DNA of 64,000 bases from Naegleria gruberi (taxonomy: Eukaryota): NCBI GenBank assembly GCA_000004985.1, contig GG738883.1. The stretch is one strand, 5' to 3'. Under the pieces are notes generated by a model. It ran no database searches. It saw only the letters and a program-made list of their open reading frames with translations, and was not told the origin of the DNA. Positions 8,882 through 59,165 of the stretch are shown here, in pieces. Each line of letters begins with the position of its first letter. Positions within the stretch are counted from its first letter, which is position 1. Both the position numbers and the translations under genes were made by a program.

Positions 8882-8968
8882 TCCGATGAGACGGAATCGA
8901 ACCGCCGACCACAGGATTACAGTGTTTCTTGCTACAGTCCCATGCTCTACCAGCTGAGCTATCATCGG
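8882..8968 (-). tRNA. tRNA-Tyr (anticodon GTA) with ~14-nt intron after position 37
   Basis: Minus-strand cloverleaf: acceptor CCGATGA/TCATCGG, D-arm AGCTCAGCTGGTAGAGC, anticodon stem TGGGA..TCCTG with loop CTGTA, inserted GCAAGAAACACTGT, T-arm GGCGGTTCGATTCCGTC, discriminator A, and a downstream T-run. Confidence 0.85.
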
Positions 8969-9107
8969 TACATGTTTTTAAATAAAGGATGAAATATTTT
9001 ATTGTAACTCTAAAATAAATTATTGGAGAACACAATGTCCTTCAAATGGATTGTAGATGATGATTGCTTAGCTTTGTTGTAAATAAGGCGATGATTGTAT
9101 TAAGTGA

Positions 9108-9180
9108 GCCCGTCTAGCTCAGTCGGTAGAGCGCAAGGCTCTTAACCTTGTGGTCGTGGGTTCGACCCCCACGGTGGGCG
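9108..9180 (+). tRNA. tRNA-Lys (anticodon CTT)
   Basis: GCCCGTCTAGCTCAGTCGGTAGAGCGCAAGGCTCTTAACCTTGTGGTCGTGGGTTCGACCCCCACGGTGGGCG is a canonical 73-nt cloverleaf with intact A and B boxes. TTTT follows the gene. Confidence 0.9.
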
Positions 9181-9374
9181 ATTTCTCTTTTATGTTAATA
9201 AGCATTTTTTAATTTTCTCTGACTTATCAAATTGTCTTAACTTTACCAAATATTCCAATAAATTCAATTTACTGAGCTTTATGTTCTTATAAGCATCTAC
9301 TATTTTGATTATTTCAACAATAATTAAATATTAAATTAAATTATATTAATTAAAAAATATTTGAATTTAAAAAA

Positions 9375-9690
9375 CATTAGTCTGACTCCCAGATTTCACT
9401 CTCTGTTAGCTCATGCTCAGTTCTGCAATCTGACCATCATACAGTGTGAAGGCTATGATTTGCTCAGTTATCCTGCCTCAACCGGTTCACCTTTCATTAG
9501 GACCCTAGTTTCTCCTTTTTCATGGGGAGGTACTATGGTCACACCGCTATTGGCGCAGACAGAACATCGTCACCATATTGCTAACAGAGGAATGAGTCTG
9601 AAGAACCATCCCTTTGCCTGACGCTGTGGCAGAGAACCATCACAGCTACCTCCCTACAGTAGCCCAGCTTGTCTTTATCATCAATTCTCG
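9375..9690 (-). ncRNA. signal recognition particle RNA (7SL / SRP RNA)
   Basis: The minus-strand sequence aligns motif-by-motif with eukaryotic 7SL RNA. Alu-domain-like GCTGGGCTACTGTAGGGAGGTAGCTGTGATGG; CAATATGGTGAC as in human CAATATGGTGACC. S-domain GGTGAACCGG followed by a helix-8-like region with the AGCA motif (GGCAGGATAACTGAGCAAATC). Helix 5 closes with TCTGTTAGC paired to GCTAACAGAGAG. A T6 Pol III terminator lies at the 3' end (plus 9369–9374) and an AT-rich TATA-like box about 30 nt upstream. The 5' end is approximate. Confidence 0.8.
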
Positions 9691-53267: not shown

Positions 53268-54212
53268 TCAATAGTACACCTGTCTATTACTTTCATCCCA
53301 CATATATGGTTTTAATAACTGTTCTGCCTTGTCTGGAAACTCTATAAACTCTTCTTTGAAATTTTCGTAATTAGAAAATAATTCAGAATTGAGAGCGTGT
53401 AGAATATCGAATGTAATTGAGATATTGAGGTCAAGCATTCCAGATTCAGTTAGCAATATTGGACAATTTGTTATTTTGGAAACAGTATCCATACGTTTTC
53501 CATAGCAAAAACCATAAAACAAACACCATCTCCATGGTACTTCTAACATGCGATTCGAATCCCTCATTAAAAGCTCCATAGTTGTTAAACAGATTTCAAA
53601 AGTATAATGAAATTTGCTTGGATTGACTAAATCTCTCTTTTTCGAATTGTTAAATAGTGGAACCCTTACATCCTTTACTCCATAATAGGTTAAAACTTTA
53701 ACATGAGGAAAATTGGTTGCGAGTAATTTCTTGTACCTTTCTATTTGAGAAACTAAAACCACAACCAGAATAGGTTGAGAATTATTACTCTCCATTAAAT
53801 AGTTAATCATTGAGAGTATAATTTCATCTCGATCAGCATGACATCTCAAATATGAATTAGCCTTTTTGTGATATTGATCAATTAACCATTCAGTAATTAA
53901 ATCAACTTCCTTTTTTTCTGAATTAATTATTTTCTTCTTGGTTTTCAAATATGAACCACGATATTGAATCGGAATTGTTATTTCTTCCGAGGAGGTGGTT
54001 GAACATTGTCTTTTAATAACTTGCTGAATATTCATAACGTATTCTTCAATTTTATGATCGGAATCAAGGCTTTCATTTAAATATTCCCAACTCTTTGATT
54101 TATCATCCCATTCAATATAATATACCAGTGATTGTTTAGAATTATCCTCATCATCCATAATAATACCATGATCTAATATTTTGAAAATCTTCCTTCCTCC
54201 ATTTAACGACAT
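53268..54212 (-). CDS. hypothetical chromodomain-like protein
   Basis: First ATG at 54212 (MSLNGGRK...). N-terminal KIFKILDHGIIMDDEDNSKQSLVYYIEWDDKSKSWEYLNESL resembles a chromo/chromo-shadow fold. The rest is unassigned. Confidence 0.5.
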   Translation of the reverse strand: MSLNGGRKIFKILDHGIIMDDEDNSKQSLVYYIEWDDKSKSWEYLNESLDSDHKIEEYVMNIQQVIKRQCSTTSSEEITIPIQYRGSYLKTKKKIINSEKKEVDLITEWLIDQYHKKANSYLRCHADRDEIILSMINYLMESNNSQPILVVVLVSQIERYKKLLATNFPHVKVLTYYGVKDVRVPLFNNSKKRDLVNPSKFHYTFEICLTTMELLMRDSNRMLEVPWRWCLFYGFCYGKRMDTVSKITNCPILLTESGMLDLNISITFDILHALNSELFSNYENFKEEFIEFPDKAEQLLKPYMWDESNRQVYY

Positions 54213-54411
54213 TTTTTTCAAACTTGGAAAATTGAAAAATTGTAACAAATAAAATCAATGAAATTACATGTGTTTCATAGTGAAATACTGTTCCTGGAGT
54301 AATGCATGGAACAATTTAATACACTCTAATCCATGTAACCTTCCAACCCTTTACAACTTCCACCTATGTTCCGACTATTCCACTCAGCGAATCAAAAAAC
54401 AATCAAAAAAA

Positions 54412-55398
54412 ATGCAACCAAATCATTATGGGGGTTACCCTGCTGGTGGTCATCAACAGCAACCAATGATGATGTACGGAAATAATACTCAAAACCTTTC
54501 TTTATCATCGGGAGGTGTTACTCTTACGATGAGTGGTAATAATAATACACCAGGGATTGTTGGTGGAGTTCCAATTATGTATCAACAACAAATGATGATG
54601 AGTCCACTTCTTCCGTATAATTTGAAAGGAGAAGTTGTGATCAAGCTTCAAAATCCATTTTCAATTAAATTGTTACCAAAATCTAATACTTTGGTGATGG
54701 TTGATGGAAATATAGGTCGTGTTGTGATGAAGGATGCAACTACTGGTATTATTAAAGAAGATTTCTCAGTTACATCTGGATGTGTTAAAGGAATTGGGGT
54801 TGATCCAACAGATGATAGTTTTTATATAATTTCAGGAAAATTCTTGATAAAATATGATTATCGTGGAGTTTATCTTGGAAAATTTGCAAAGAAAATGAAT
54901 TTGAACAATCCATATGGTTGTACTGTTGATGATACTGGAAATGTCTATATCACAGATTTGAATGATTGTAAAATTGTTGTTCTCTCACGTGAAGAGCAAC
55001 TTGTAAATAAGATTGAATTTAACAAACCATACGATATAGTATTTGATAATGTGAATAAGCTCCTAATTGTGACAGATCAACAAAAGGATTGTGTTAGAAT
55101 TTTAGCAAAGAGTGGTCAAGAAATTAGAAAGATTGGAGACAAGGGTAACGCCAAAGGTCAATTCAGTTCACCAAGTGGTGTTTGTGTGGATGGAAATTCT
55201 CAAATTTTCGTAGCAGATTATGGAAATCATCGTGTACAAATGTTTGACATTAATGGAAGATTTTTAAATTCATTTGGAACAAAGGGCAATACAGATTCAC
55301 ATTTTGATTTACCAAGATCTCTATGTGTGGATATGAATGGAAATTTATATGTAGCAGAGTATGGTAATTCACGTGTACAAGTATTCAAAAAGTTGTAA
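54412..55398 (+). CDS. NHL-repeat protein with Q/M-rich N-terminus (tandem paralog 1)
   Basis: ATG at 54412. C-terminal six-bladed NHL repeats (…GQFSSPSGVCVDGNSQIFVADYGNHRVQMFD...). Collinear with the downstream gene 55758..57251. Confidence 0.75.
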   Translation: MQPNHYGGYPAGGHQQQPMMMYGNNTQNLSLSSGGVTLTMSGNNNTPGIVGGVPIMYQQQMMMSPLLPYNLKGEVVIKLQNPFSIKLLPKSNTLVMVDGNIGRVVMKDATTGIIKEDFSVTSGCVKGIGVDPTDDSFYIISGKFLIKYDYRGVYLGKFAKKMNLNNPYGCTVDDTGNVYITDLNDCKIVVLSREEQLVNKIEFNKPYDIVFDNVNKLLIVTDQQKDCVRILAKSGQEIRKIGDKGNAKGQFSSPSGVCVDGNSQIFVADYGNHRVQMFDINGRFLNSFGTKGNTDSHFDLPRSLCVDMNGNLYVAEYGNSRVQVFKKL

Positions 55399-55757
55399 TT
55401 AAGATTAAACGATTTTTCTCCATATTGAATATTTCATTACATACAAGAGAGAAGTGTTGTGGAATAGTAGTAGTAATTCATACAACCAACAGAAAAGAGC
55501 GCTTAACTCTGTAACAAACATCAATTCCACAACATATCAGTTCTCAATAATGTGTTACACACATTTTCAATATTGGAAATGATCTGTGTCCAACCAATAA
55601 AATCATATCAACATCTCAAAAATCTTTGAAAATCACCAACACAATGCAAGCTTAATAAATTGTTACACACAACACCAAACTACACTGAACACTCAATGAA
55701 CATTCTCCAATTTCCAAAACATTTAAATAGATCTTTGTAAATTACAATTTTTAAAAA

Positions 55758-55907
55758 ATGTATCAACAACAACAACCTTATTATCATCCATCACAACAAC
55801 AACGACAACAACCGAATTTACCCATCGGATCAGTATCACACCAGCAAATAACTGTACAGAATAATTTTCAACCAAACATGTATCCTCCACATCCTCAACA
55901 ACAATAT

Positions 55908-55938
<31 letters not shown>

Positions 55939-57251
55939 ATAATCCATATGGATCATCATCTGCTCCTCCATTGGTGATGAATCAACAACAGCAACCACCT
56001 ACTTATGGACAGCCTATGAATCAACAACAACAACAACCACCGATGCATCATCAACCGAATTATGGACAAGTTGTGCAACCAACAACATCGGGTGGATCGA
56101 TTACAGTTTCTACTACACAACAACATCCACATTCATTCTATTATCCATATTATTCATATCAGACAACTACTAATACTAACATTCCAATTCATGGACAACC
56201 ACAACAAGGATCAGTCCCACCACCACAACAACAACATGTACAACAACCGTATGGTCAACCACAACCACCAATGAATCCACCAAGTACTAATATTCAACCT
56301 ATGAATCCTTATGGTCAACCAATGATGACTCCACCACCTGTTGTGAATAGTTCACCATTAACTGTTGCCTCAGTCCAAACTAGTATTACATTCAGTAATA
56401 CTACTACTCCAACTCCAACACACAACAGTATTAAATATCAAATTAACCCACCTCTCCACATTGCTCCACATTATTCATTGAGAGGAGAATTGGTATTAAA
56501 AACACAACATCCATTCTGTGTGAGAGCTATGCATCATTCACCAACAATTATTATTGCTGATTCGAATACTAGCAAAATTACCTTGTTGGATAGTTCAAGT
56601 GGGATGGTAAGAGAAACCTTCGATGTTACCACAGGATGTGTTGGAGGTGTTGGAGTTGATCCAATGGATGACAGTTTTTATATTGTTTCTGGACAGAAAA
56701 TTCTAAAATATGGAGCTAATGGAGTTCATTTGGGAACTTTTGGAGAGAATTTCAATTTGAAAAAGCCATACGGTCTAACAGTCGACGATCAAGGGTTTGT
56801 CTATATCTGTGATCTTCATCAACATATTTTTGTAATGACTCGTGAAGGAATCATGGTCAGATACATCTCAGTAGAGAAGCCTTATGATATTTTCTTTGAT
56901 AAATTAAATCAAACTCTTGTAGTGACTGACCAAGATAAGGATTGTGTAAGAGTTTTAACTAAAGAAGGTCTGAAAATTAGAAAAATTGGTGGAAAGGGAA
57001 ATGCTAAAGGTCAATTCATTTCACCAAGTGGAGTTTGTGTAAATGCAGGTAGTAACATTATTGTTGCAGATTATGGAAATCATAGAGTGCAAGTATTTGA
57101 TTGTATGGGAAGATTCCTCTATTCTATGGGAAATAAGGGAAAATTAGAATCAGAATTTGATTTACCAAGATCAGTATGCACTGATATTAATGGAAATTTA
57201 TTTGTTGCTGAATATGGAAACTCTAGAGTTCAAATATTCAGGAAAATGTAA
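55758..57251 (+). CDS. NHL-repeat protein with long poly-Q/P/Y prion-like N-terminus (tandem paralog 2)
   Basis: Q-rich N-terminal ~200 aa, including a (CAA)10 tract. The NHL repeat block is about 60% identical to the upstream paralog (GKGNAKGQFISPSGVCVNAGSNIIVADYGNHRVQVFD). Confidence 0.8.
55908..55937 (+). repeat. (CAA)n trinucleotide repeat encoding poly-Q inside gene 55758..57251
   Basis: Ten perfect CAA units seen directly. Confidence 0.9.
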
Positions 57252-57435
57252 ATAAACTTCTCTTTGCCCAGATAGATTGTAATGAACATTTTATAGAATT
57301 TAGATGCCTACGAAAGAGATTGTATCACTTATCGTATGGAAAGTTGTTGTTTGCTATTCTAATAAATTCCTTAAATCAATTTAGTATTAGCCAATAACAC
57401 TAATAAAAATAATAACTTTAAGGATAGGAATGTAA

Positions 57436-57499
57436 AGCAAATTGGAAGCGCGATGGGCTCATAACCCATAGGTCCTAGGATCGAAACCTAGATTTGCTA
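57436..57499 (+). pseudogene. initiator tRNA-Met (CAT)-derived pseudogene with deleted D-arm (~64 nt)
   Basis: AGCAAAT TG GAAGCGCG ATGGG CTCATAA CCCAT AGGTC CTAGG ATCGAAA CCTAG ATTTGCT A. Initiator hallmarks present: A1:U72, three G:C pairs in the anticodon stem, and T-loop A54/A60. Only ~8 nt lie between position 9 and the anticodon stem, so the A box is lost. Confidence 0.6.
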
Positions 57500-57604
57500 A
57501 TCATTTTACAATTTTGGCATTGAAACAATCTATTAATAAATTTAGTGAACTAAGGCAAAAACAAACCAATATTAATTTAAAAGGAATTAATTTAAAAAGG
57601 AAAT

Positions 57605-57676
57605 GGGGACCAGTGGGAATCGAACCCACGGCCTCTCGCACCCAAAGCGAGAATCATACCACTAGACCATGGTCCC
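57605..57676 (-). tRNA. tRNA-Pro (anticodon TGG)
   Basis: Minus strand GGGACCATGGTCTAGTGGTATGATTCTCGCTTTGGGTGCGAGAGGCCGTGGGTTCGATTCCCACTGGTCCCC is a canonical 72-nt cloverleaf. T5 lies downstream. Confidence 0.9.
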
Positions 57677-58217
57677 TTATATTGAATGAATAATATTAAA
57701 AAAAATTGATGTCTAGAACTTTGGCGCATTTGATTGAATTTACTATTGTAATATTCCATTCTTTGAAAATCTTGTAATGGGCTTCTTTCTTCATCAAAAA
57801 AAAACAAGAGAAGCACATAGATTTCAGATGCTGATTCTTCATCAAACAGATTATCCTCTGATTCAGATTTTGATTCATCATTATCACAAAGGCCTCACCT
57901 TCAAAAATATCTTGAAAAAGTGTCTCACCAGAAAAAGATACCATTACTACATTCCATCAAGCTTAAGGATTATGTTTTCAAATCCAAAAATGATTCTTCT
58001 TCTTTCTCGAAGATTTCCAATTCAACCAAGAGGGTATTTGTAAATTGAAGATCTTAATGGATACATTCATTTTTAGAAAGTATGTCGATTAGTTCTGAAT
58101 AAAATTGAATTGTTATTACAACAGACTTCTATGTAGGGCGCCCATTGTTTGAATTATTATTCACATACTACAAAGAACACAAAGTGTCAAGGTTTTTTAA
58201 CAAAAGTCTGCCATAAT

Positions 58218-59165
58218 TTATTCATCGAATGGATCTTCTACTCTCGCACTAGTGAGCTCTAATAATTGATTCATATCTTCTCTCAATACTCTTGTTCTTT
58301 CCTCATCCAAGTTCAACGTTTCACTTGAGAACAATCCAAAGAATTCATAAACTCGAGGTAATATTTCACCTCTTCTGAATTTCGAACTTCCAAATAATCT
58401 ACATCTTGGATGATTACAAGTTTTCAAATCAATGATATCTTCAAATGACCATTCAGTTGGTTTTCCTTCATAAGTTTTAAATTTTTCCTCAATCATCATA
58501 CATAATTGATGTGTATAATCACAAAATGTATCATAATCTACAATAATTTCATGGAAATAGAGTCTATATCCTGATTTGTATTTGGCTGTAGTTGTAACAG
58601 CATCTTCCCATTTTCCATGACATTGTGTCAATACCATTGAAATATCTTTTTTAGGAAAATATTGTTTTGTAAATTGCATAATACTATCAACCCATCCCAA
58701 TTCCACAATATCACATGGTTTTTCAATTTCCACTTTCAAATCAATATCAACATATAATCTAAATGCATGTTTAGTTCTCATTTCCTCAATGTACATTTTA
58801 GATTTATCAAGTATTGTCTTCTTCCAAGCACTCAAATATTCATTATACATTTGTTGAGATCTGAAAATGATGTGATAATGTCCTCCTCGTTGTGACACAT
58901 GTGTTGGATGTTCTAAACATAAAACTAAATTCTTTTCATTGTGTTTCAAGAGCCATTTCTCTAATTCGTCTTGTGGTTTATAATCCTCGATGCATTTTCT
59001 TGCTTTTACTTGTGAAAAGACGACACCATATTCTCCAATCTTGGAATTACTATTGGATGATGTTGAATTTCCTTTAATTTCGGAATATCTTTTCACATTG
59101 GGTGAAATTTTTGTAATTGATTCCAGTGATGATCCGGACTGCTGACTATGTTTCTTTGGTGCCAT
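58218..59165 (-). CDS. hypothetical protein, paralog B of the SQRGGHYH / hhDhD / CHG / KYKSGYRLYF / HPRCRLFGS family
   Basis: The 315-aa ATG ORF is collinear with 30000..30884, with the identical motifs HPTHVSQRGGHYH, LYVDIDLK, QCHGKW, KYKSGYRLYF, EDIIDL and NHPRCRLFGSSK. Confidence 0.7.
   Translation of the reverse strand: MAPKKHSQQSGSSLESITKISPNVKRYSEIKGNSTSSNSNSKIGEYGVVFSQVKARKCIEDYKPQDELEKWLLKHNEKNLVLCLEHPTHVSQRGGHYHIIFRSQQMYNEYLSAWKKTILDKSKMYIEEMRTKHAFRLYVDIDLKVEIEKPCDIVELGWVDSIMQFTKQYFPKKDISMVLTQCHGKWEDAVTTTAKYKSGYRLYFHEIIVDYDTFCDYTHQLCMMIEEKFKTYEGKPTEWSFEDIIDLKTCNHPRCRLFGSSKFRRGEILPRVYEFFGLFSSETLNLDEERTRVLREDMNQLLELTSARVEDPFDE

What the first reader, a model, noticed from the sequence alone, without database searches (positions are those of the whole stretch)
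57436..57676. Initiator-tRNA-Met-derived pseudogene lacking the D-arm, convergent with an intact tRNA-Pro(UGG)
57436–57499 retains the acceptor stem (A1:U72), the anticodon stem-loop with its three G:C pairs and CAU, and the A54/A60 T-loop of eukaryotic initiator tRNA. The whole D stem-loop is missing. That removes the Pol III A box, so the copy is probably silent and acts as a tRNA relic or fragment source. It lies 105 bp from a perfect tRNA-Pro on the opposite strand. A copy of the motif-bearing paralog family starts 540 bp further on.
Basis: seen in the sequence. Interest (0 to 1): 0.5.

Follow-up and report, generated by a model that had tools for sequence, protein, structure and literature searches.

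The report
Initiator tRNA gene with 8-bp deletion
One copy of the Naegleria gruberi start-codon (initiator methionine) tRNA gene has lost 8 bases from its D-arm, while a near-identical strain has the same gene intact at the same spot, so it is an ordinary, very young tRNA pseudogene allele.

Summary
The window is Naegleria gruberi nuclear DNA. Bases 57436-57499(+) are a 64-nt tRNA-like sequence scoring 43.9 bits against Rfam tRNA (gathering score 29). It carries every eukaryotic initiator-tRNA mark: A1:U72, three G:C pairs above a CAU anticodon, and an AUCGAAA T-loop. It has no D-stem.

An ENA metagenome contig (L036) is the decisive comparison. It differs from the window by only 0.3-0.7% in the two neighbouring NHL genes. 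At exactly the syntenic position it has an intact 72-nt tRNAi-Met (64 bits). The window copy matches it at 64 of 64 bases, apart from one 8-nt gap.

The gap removes the 5' D-stem strand and the first half of the D-loop. The A box drops from 8 of 9 to 5 of 9 consensus positions. The B box and the T-run terminators survive.

Best reading: a very recent, strain- or allele-specific deletion made a crippled tRNAi-Met gene copy. N. gruberi is reported to have 924 tDNAs (PMC2888827), so other copies probably cover for it. An assembly error cannot be excluded. tRNA-Pro(UGG), 105 bp away and convergent, is intact. Interest is low.

The parts
57436..57499 (+). Truncated tRNAi-Met gene copy (64 nt). Acceptor 5' strand 57436-57442; residual linker 57443-57452; anticodon arm 57453-57469 with CAT at 57460-57462; variable loop 57470-57474; T-arm 57475-57491; acceptor 3' strand 57492-57498; discriminator A at 57499.
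   Evidence: Rfam tRNA 43.9 bits. It matches the intact 72-nt syntenic tRNA in L036 at 64 of 64 bases, apart from one 8-nt gap. ARAGORN in standard mode does not call it.
57443..57452 (+). Residual D region TGGAAGCGCG. The deletion junction lies within TGG|A (57443-57446). The 8 missing bases are the 5' D-stem strand GCGC plus D-loop AGCG. GG microhomology on both sides makes the exact breakpoint ambiguous by 2 nt.
   Evidence: Pairwise alignments. The cmscan alignment shows 5 nt in place of 13 model positions. RNAfold leaves this stretch unpaired in the centroid structure.
57478..57488 (+). Intact Pol III B box of initiator type (GGATCGAAACC).
   Evidence: Read from the sequence. Identical to the intact allele. 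The B-box consensus GGTTCGANTCC is from established knowledge.
57504..57515 (+). Two T4 runs (57504-57507 and 57512-57515) 5 and 13 nt downstream. They resemble Pol III terminators and are also present in L036.
   Evidence: Sequence; alignment.
57401..57435 (+). A/T-rich 35-nt block immediately upstream (TAATAAAAATAATAACTTTAAGGATAGGAATGTAA). It is 100% identical to L036, while the spacer further upstream is largely unalignable. It may be an upstream promoter element (inference).
   Evidence: BLAST match of L036 168-202 (of the extracted spacer) to window 57401-57435 at 100%; alignment.
57605..57676 (-). Intact tRNA-Pro(UGG), convergent with the truncated tRNAi-Met across a 105-bp spacer, with its own downstream T-runs.
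   Evidence: ARAGORN; Rfam 62.4 bits; flanks.
58218..59165 (-). Context only; it is not part of the lesion.
   Evidence: Pfam PF18188, E=5.6e-71. 100% identical to N. gruberi NAEGRDRAFT_70326, with paralogs in N. gruberi, N. lovaniensis and Willaertia.

Best explanation
This is a nuclear Naegleria gruberi initiator tRNA-Met gene copy that recently lost 8 bp from the 5' half of its D-arm.

How the deletion arose (inferred): probably replication slippage between the GG dinucleotides flanking the missing bases, within the GCGC...GCGC D-stem palindrome.

What the deletion does:
- Shown: it removes the D-stem. It also removes positions 10-18 (A14, G15 and one of the two conserved G18/G19 bases).
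- Inferred from established tRNA structure: the D-loop/T-loop elbow contacts and the other core tertiary contacts made by those bases are lost.
- Shown against the textbook consensus: the internal Pol III A box is degraded.
- Shown: the B box, the terminators and the upstream A/T-rich block are unchanged.

Expected consequences (inferred):
- Transcription is reduced or mis-started.
- Any transcript cannot fold into the L-shape.
- Such a transcript would be poorly processed and modified, and removed by nuclear tRNA surveillance.

The copy is therefore a young, effectively dead or crippled allele. Its loss is probably buffered by other tRNAi-Met copies in a genome reported to carry about 924 tDNAs.
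For: 1. Organism: the adjacent ORF is 100% identical to an N. gruberi protein on a 371-kb scaffold.
2. Homology and lesion: contig L036 is colinear with window 54042-57525. It carries an intact 72-nt tRNAi-Met at the same position (Rfam 64.0 bits). The window copy matches at 64 of 64 bases with a single 8-nt gap. Its Rfam score is 43.9 bits.
3. Recency: substitutions between the two sequences are 4 of 1127 in NHL1, 1 of 336 in the NHL1-NHL2 spacer, and 11 of 1479 in NHL2, of which 10 are at third codon positions. About 0.3 substitutions would be expected in 64 nt. The pristine remainder therefore needs no selective explanation.
4. Structure: RNAfold gives the intact copy a clean cloverleaf at -22.4 kcal/mol. 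The window copy gives three helices joined by an unpaired 10-nt linker, at -15.6 kcal/mol.
5. No hidden D-arm.
6. All 43 other sequences fetched that share the same 20-nt anticodon arm are full-length tRNA-Met genes of 72-78 nt. Only the window copy fails.
7. The truncated form is not conserved. Syntenic regions of N. lovaniensis and an N. fowleri-like genome have no tRNA there at all.
8. Redundancy: 924 tDNAs are reported for N. gruberi (PMC2888827).
9. A box, by my own count against TRGCNNAGTGG: 8 of 9 specified positions match in the intact allele and 5 of 9 in the window copy.
Against: - No expression, modification or aminoacylation data could be reached, so 'silent' and 'non-functional' are inferences.
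- I could not scan the rest of the N. gruberi genome. The existence of other intact tRNAi-Met copies rests on the reported tDNA count, not on observation.
- No independent sequence of strain NEG-M was found. The deletion rests on one reference assembly.
- The intact B box, terminators and conserved upstream block mean some transcription is still possible.
Confidence: 0.78

Rival explanations
1. Artefact of the reference assembly or sequencing: the real NEG-M locus is intact, and the 8-nt gap is a consensus error in a G+C-rich palindromic stretch.
For: - The deletion is seen in a single assembly.
- The only other sequence of this locus is intact.
- The rest of the gene is flawless.
- The missing bases lie within the palindrome GCGCAGCGGAAGCGC, which can cause sequencing trouble (general knowledge).
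- No independent NEG-M contig could be retrieved to check it.
Against: - An exact 8-nt loss in a multi-fold Sanger consensus is an unusual error type (general knowledge).
- The same two sequences differ by about 27 other gap openings and a non-homologous spacer block, so real indel polymorphism between them is common.
- N. gruberi is described as a heterozygous diploid (PMC9928731). Real allelic indels are therefore expected.
Confidence: 0.12
2. A functional D-arm-less initiator-like tRNA or tRNA-like RNA. It would be transcribed from the B box plus the upstream A/T-rich element, fold into a three-helix 'D-replacement-loop' tRNA like mitochondrial tRNA-Ser(AGY), and serve in translation or regulation.
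For: - All three remaining helices are perfectly paired, and every initiator identity element outside the D-arm is kept.
- The B box, the T-run terminators and the 35-nt upstream block are intact.
- The 10-nt linker is similar in size to D-replacement loops of mitochondrial tRNAs (from memory).
Against: - The intact form sits at the same locus in a strain about 0.5% diverged. The truncated form is therefore not a conserved feature, and its perfect helices are explained by youth alone.
- No other instance of the junction sequence turned up in 241 million metagenome records or in the viral contigs.
- No cytoplasmic D-arm-less tRNA system is known (my knowledge).
- Eukaryotic tRNAi depends on D-loop/T-loop contacts and is subject to surveillance (established knowledge).
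Confidence: 0.04
3. A residual TFIIIC-binding site (ETC-like, B box only) that no longer makes tRNA but has been co-opted as a chromatin boundary or insulator between the NHL genes and the tRNA-Pro/Prim-Pol block.
For: The B box is intact while the A box is damaged (sequence). In yeast, ETC sites are B-box-only TFIIIC sites (established knowledge).
Against: - There is no evidence of selection for this state.
- The lesion is too young to have been co-opted.
- An intact tRNA-Pro 105 bp away already offers a full TFIIIC/TFIIIB site.
Confidence: 0.03

Closest known systems
Eukaryotic cytoplasmic initiator tRNA-Met genes (tRNAi-Met)
   Same: A1:U72, G29-31:C39-41, CAU anticodon, A54 and A60 in an AUCGAAA T-loop, discriminator A, a B box and a downstream T-run. 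Identical at 64 of 64 bases to an intact N. gruberi-type tRNAi-Met.
   Different: It lacks 8 nt (the 5' D-stem strand and half the D-loop). It therefore has no D-stem and only one of the two conserved G18/G19 bases, and its A box is degraded. Its Rfam score is 43.9 bits against 64.0 for the intact copy.
tRNA pseudogenes (truncated or mutated tDNA copies, as flagged by tRNAscan-SE)
   Same: Clearly derived from a tRNA gene. It carries a structural lesion incompatible with the cloverleaf, and it sits in a genome with many tDNAs (924; PMC2888827).
   Different: It is unusually young. A single indel is the only difference from the functional form, and the intact allele is still found in the species.
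D-arm-less mitochondrial tRNAs (for example metazoan mt-tRNA-Ser(AGY), and truncated nematode and mite mt-tRNAs)
   Same: The same outline: acceptor, anticodon and T helices with a short unpaired linker in place of the D-arm.
   Different: Those are conserved and organellar, and work with co-evolved factors. This one is nuclear, strain-specific and not conserved.
ETC (extra TFIIIC) sites of yeast
   Same: A B box without a functional A box.
   Different: ETC sites are conserved stand-alone sites. This is a freshly damaged gene with no evidence of any such role.

Membership tests
Eukaryotic cytoplasmic initiator tRNA-Met | CAU anticodon in a 7-nt loop closed by three consecutive G:C pairs (29-31:39-41) | tested here: met
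   ATGGG-CTCATAA-CCCAT at 57453-57469.
Eukaryotic cytoplasmic initiator tRNA-Met | A1:U72 base pair | tested here: met
   A at 57436 pairs with T at 57498. The acceptor stem has 7 of 7 Watson-Crick pairs.
Eukaryotic cytoplasmic initiator tRNA-Met | A54 and A60 in the T-loop (AUCGAAA in place of TΨCRANY) | tested here: met
   ATCGAAA at 57480-57486.
Eukaryotic cytoplasmic initiator tRNA-Met | Complete cloverleaf with a 4-bp D-stem and a D-loop carrying G18 and G19 | tested here: not met
   8 nt are missing relative to the intact syntenic copy. No D-stem appears in the fold. ARAGORN fails to call it.
Eukaryotic cytoplasmic initiator tRNA-Met | Expression, methionylation and eIF2 binding | not testable with these tools
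   No RNA or biochemical data were accessible.
Rfam RF00005 (tRNA) | Covariance-model score at or above the gathering threshold of 29 bits | tested here: met
   43.9 bits, full-length model match with a local deletion in the D-arm.
tRNA pseudogene | Demonstrable descent from a functional tRNA gene | tested here: met
   Syntenic with an intact tRNAi-Met in L036 and identical at 64 of 64 bases.
tRNA pseudogene | A lesion that disrupts conserved structure or the promoter | tested here: met
   The D-stem is lost. The A-box match falls from 8 of 9 to 5 of 9 consensus positions (my count on the sequences).
tRNA pseudogene | No functional transcript | not testable with these tools
   No small-RNA data.
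Functional D-arm-less tRNAs (mitochondrial type) | The truncated architecture is conserved among relatives | tested here: not met
   The near-identical strain has the full D-arm. N. lovaniensis and the N. fowleri-like syntenic loci have no tRNA there. The 43 other tRNA-Met genes sharing the anticodon arm are all full length.
Pol III type-2 promoter | A box, B box and a downstream T-run terminator | tested here: inconclusive
   The B box and T-runs are present and the A box is degraded (sequence). Promoter requirements in Naegleria have not been characterised, as far as I could find.

The most novel reading that the evidence does not exclude
The 64-nt allele is still transcribed, using the B box and the conserved upstream A/T-rich block. 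It yields a stable cytoplasmic initiator-type tRNA with a D-replacement loop, which is methionylated or otherwise used. That would be the first nuclear-encoded, D-arm-less cytosolic tRNA caught at the moment of origin.
Probability: 0.03. Interest if true: 0.7.

Novelty: new member of a known kind. Interest (0 to 1): 0.1.

Why it matters
It matters little beyond annotation. It is a clean, datable example of how a multicopy tRNA gene dies: a single microhomology-flanked 8-bp deletion in the D-arm, with the intact allele still present in the species.

Two practical points follow:
- Standard tRNA finders miss it (ARAGORN) or score it well below its intact counterpart (Rfam). It should be annotated as a pseudogene, not as a tRNAi-Met gene, and not counted as initiator tRNA capacity.
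- If the deletion is real and heterozygous, it would serve as a handy natural marker distinguishing N. gruberi haplotypes or strains.

Tried and rejected
- Independent sequence of strain NEG-M: exact-protein look-ups for NHL2 (497 aa), NHL1 (328 aa) and the zf-MYND/FKBP ORF found nothing on record. The Prim-Pol protein is known from one contig only. The assembly-error rival therefore could not be tested.
- Other Naegleria tRNAi-Met copies: the metagenome scan for AAGCGCGATGGGCTCATAACCCATAGGTC returned 13 contigs. None is from Naegleria, and all carry full-length tRNAs. The genome-contig scan found nothing. The viral scan gave 29 phage or large-virus tRNA-Met genes, all full length.
- Synteny via Prim-Pol orthologues (L001-L003) led nowhere. 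The neighbours differ and there are no tRNAs.
- The TOR search did not return Naegleria orthologues. The NHL search did, and led to L036 and L033-L035.
- Hidden D-arm or mis-parse: rejected.
- Repeat or mobile-element origin of the flanking spacers: BLAST against the window and the other Naegleria loci found nothing.
- tRNA-derived SINE, split or permuted tRNA, and insertional RNA editing were considered. I rejected them because an intact colinear allele explains the sequence fully.
- Literature: no paper on Naegleria initiator tRNA or on the ENA project PRJEB11402 was found.

Full report
**Source of the window.** The ORF at 58218-59165(-) is 100% identical to a predicted protein of Naegleria gruberi (NAEGRDRAFT_70326) on a 371,401-bp scaffold. 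The window has about 33% G+C and long intron-poor ORFs. It also holds a eukaryotic SRP RNA and several nuclear-type tRNA genes. This is nuclear DNA of N. gruberi, presumably the reference strain NEG-M.

**Checking the observation.** The 64 bases at 57436-57499(+) read AGCAAAT TG GAAGCGCG ATGGG CTCATAA CCCAT AGGTC CTAGG ATCGAAA CCTAG ATTTGCT A.
- Rfam's tRNA model matches end to end at 43.9 bits (gathering score 29; E=4.9e-6 for the whole window). It places a local deletion in the D-arm: 5 nt where the model has 13.
- ARAGORN does not call it.
- RNAfold gives three helices and an unpaired 10-nt linker, at -15.6 kcal/mol.
- Relaxed and mitochondrial ARAGORN modes produce only forced cloverleaves. 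These borrow flanking bases and contain mismatches.
- tRNA-Pro(UGG) at 57605-57676(-) is intact (62.4 bits), exactly 105 bp away and convergent.
- The 'paralog family' member is a Prim-Pol (PPL4/AEP) gene whose stop codon lies 541 bp beyond tRNA-Pro.

**The decisive comparison.** I searched with the neighbouring NHL-repeat protein and fetched the contigs encoding its relatives. One of them, the ENA metagenome contig L036 (3,473 bp), is colinear with window 54042-57525.
- In a global alignment the two differ at 4 of 1127 sites in NHL1, 1 of 336 in the NHL1-NHL2 spacer, and 11 of 1479 in NHL2, with 10 of those 11 at third codon positions. L036 is therefore another strain or haplotype of the same species.
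- Directly after NHL2, at the syntenic position, L036 carries a 72-nt tRNA scoring 64.0 bits: AGCAAATTGGCGCAGCGGAAGCGCGATGGGCTCATAACCCATAGGTCCTAGGATCGAAACCTAGATTTGCTA. It folds into a clean cloverleaf at -22.4 kcal/mol.
- The window copy is identical at all 64 shared positions. It differs only by one 8-nt gap.

**Anatomy of the lesion.**
- Because GG flanks the gap on both sides (TGG-CGCAGC-GG-AAGC), the missing bases can be written GCGCAGCG, GGCGCAGC or CGCAGCGG.
- In tRNA numbering the loss covers the 5' D-stem strand (10-13) and the first four D-loop bases (A14, G15, C16 and one of G18/G19). U8, G9, the 3' part of the loop, the 3' stem strand GCGC and G26 remain.
- So the D-stem cannot form, but half of the arm's sequence is still there.
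- Against the textbook A-box consensus TRGCNNAGTGG, the intact allele matches 8 of 9 specified positions and the window copy 5 of 9 (my count).
- The B box (GGATCGAAACC, 57478-57488), two downstream T4 runs (57504-57507 and 57512-57515) and a 35-nt A/T-rich block immediately upstream (57401-57435) are unchanged. The upstream block is 100% identical between the strains, while much of the spacer beyond it is unalignable.

**Age and significance.** With about 0.5% divergence, only about 0.3 substitutions are expected in 64 nt. The flawless remainder therefore says nothing about selection. It simply means the deletion is very young.
- The truncated form is not conserved. The syntenic regions of N. 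lovaniensis (L033) and an N. fowleri-like genome (L034, L035) have no tRNA at all.
- All 43 other sequences retrieved that share the same 20-nt anticodon arm are full-length tRNA-Met genes of 72-78 nt.
- N. gruberi is reported to have 924 tDNAs (PMC2888827). Loss of one initiator copy is therefore plausibly buffered. That is an inference, because I could not scan the rest of the genome.

**Mechanism.** Most likely (about 0.78) this is a real deletion allele.
- How it arose (inferred): slippage at the GG microhomology within the D-stem palindrome removed 8 bp.
- Its effect on transcription (inferred from classic Pol III type-2 promoter work): the damaged A box should lower or misplace initiation.
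- Its effect on the RNA (inferred): any transcript lacks the D-stem and part of the D-loop/T-loop elbow, so it should fail normal folding, modification and surveillance. Eukaryotic tRNAi is known to be especially sensitive to these.

Three rivals remain:
- A consensus error in the reference assembly (about 0.12). It is untestable here because no independent NEG-M sequence could be found. It is somewhat disfavoured because the same pair of sequences shows many other real indels, and because N. gruberi is described as a heterozygous diploid (PMC9928731).
- A functional D-arm-less tRNA-like RNA (about 0.04).
- A co-opted B-box-only TFIIIC site (about 0.03).

**Comparison with known things.** It works like, and is best filed as, a tRNA pseudogene derived from a eukaryotic initiator tRNA-Met gene. 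It passes the sequence-identity tests for tRNAi-Met but fails the defining complete-cloverleaf test. It should therefore not be annotated as a functional tRNAi-Met. Its outline resembles mitochondrial D-arm-less tRNAs, but it fails their defining test of conservation of the truncated form.

**Verdict.** The interpretation as an initiator-derived, probably dead copy is essentially right, but it is imprecise about the extent of the lesion and wrong in implying an old relic. This is an ordinary young pseudogene allele. Interest is about 0.1.

Noticed in passing
L004, L008, L010, L017-L019, L021-L025, L031-L032, L037-L049 (tRNA around the pattern match in each): About 30 IMG/VR viral contigs and JGI metagenome contigs (up to 217 kb, about 45-49% G+C) carry a nearly identical tRNA-Met: AGCGGCGTGGCGCAGAGGAAGCGCGATGGGCTCATAACCCATAGGTCGGTTGATCGAAACAACYCGCCGCTA. 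It has eukaryotic-initiator marks (A1:U72, three G:C pairs, A54/A60), which suggests large viruses that encode a eukaryote-type initiator tRNA.
   Followed up: no
window 8882-9667: A tight cluster of Pol III genes. It holds a probable tRNA-Tyr(GUA) with a roughly 14-nt intron at 8882-8968(-), which Rfam scores at 54.8 bits and ARAGORN misses. It also holds tRNA-Lys(CUU) at 9108-9180(+) and an SRP RNA at 9370-9667(-) (94.3 bits). All have downstream T-runs.
   Followed up: partly
window 57266-57342 versus L036 3188-3275: Between two sequences that are otherwise about 99.5% identical, a block of roughly 80-90 nt just 3' of the NHL2 stop codon is non-homologous. It looks like a replacement rather than divergence. 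A 10-nt indel lies closer to the tRNA. The block has no matches elsewhere in the window or in the other Naegleria loci.
   Followed up: partly
window 57401-57435: A 35-nt A/T-rich block directly upstream of the tRNAi copy (TAATAAAAATAATAACTTTAAGGATAGGAATGTAA) is 100% conserved between the strains, although the spacer beyond it is scrambled. It may be an upstream Pol III promoter element. No obvious shared motif was seen upstream of the other three tRNAs in the window.
   Followed up: partly
window 57436-59165 versus L033 6999-10941: In N. lovaniensis the TOR, zf-MYND/FKBP and NHL genes are neighbours with no tRNAs between them. Its closest Prim-Pol homologue lies elsewhere on the same 630-kb contig. 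The tRNAi/tRNA-Pro/Prim-Pol block therefore looks like an N. gruberi-lineage insertion or rearrangement, and gene orientations also differ.
   Followed up: partly
window 58218-59165(-) and homologues P0005-P0010: The Prim-Pol (PF18188 PPL4 / PF23162 AEP_C962R, a virus-like primase-polymerase fold) forms a paralogous family in Naegleria and Willaertia. Several members carry an extra PF04457 domain (MJ1316 RNA cyclic group end recognition).
   Followed up: no
window 54268-57251: Two tandem NHL-repeat beta-propeller paralogs lie here. The second has a long Q/P-rich N-terminal region. The tandem pair is kept in L036, whereas only one gene was called at the corresponding place in N. lovaniensis.
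   Followed up: no
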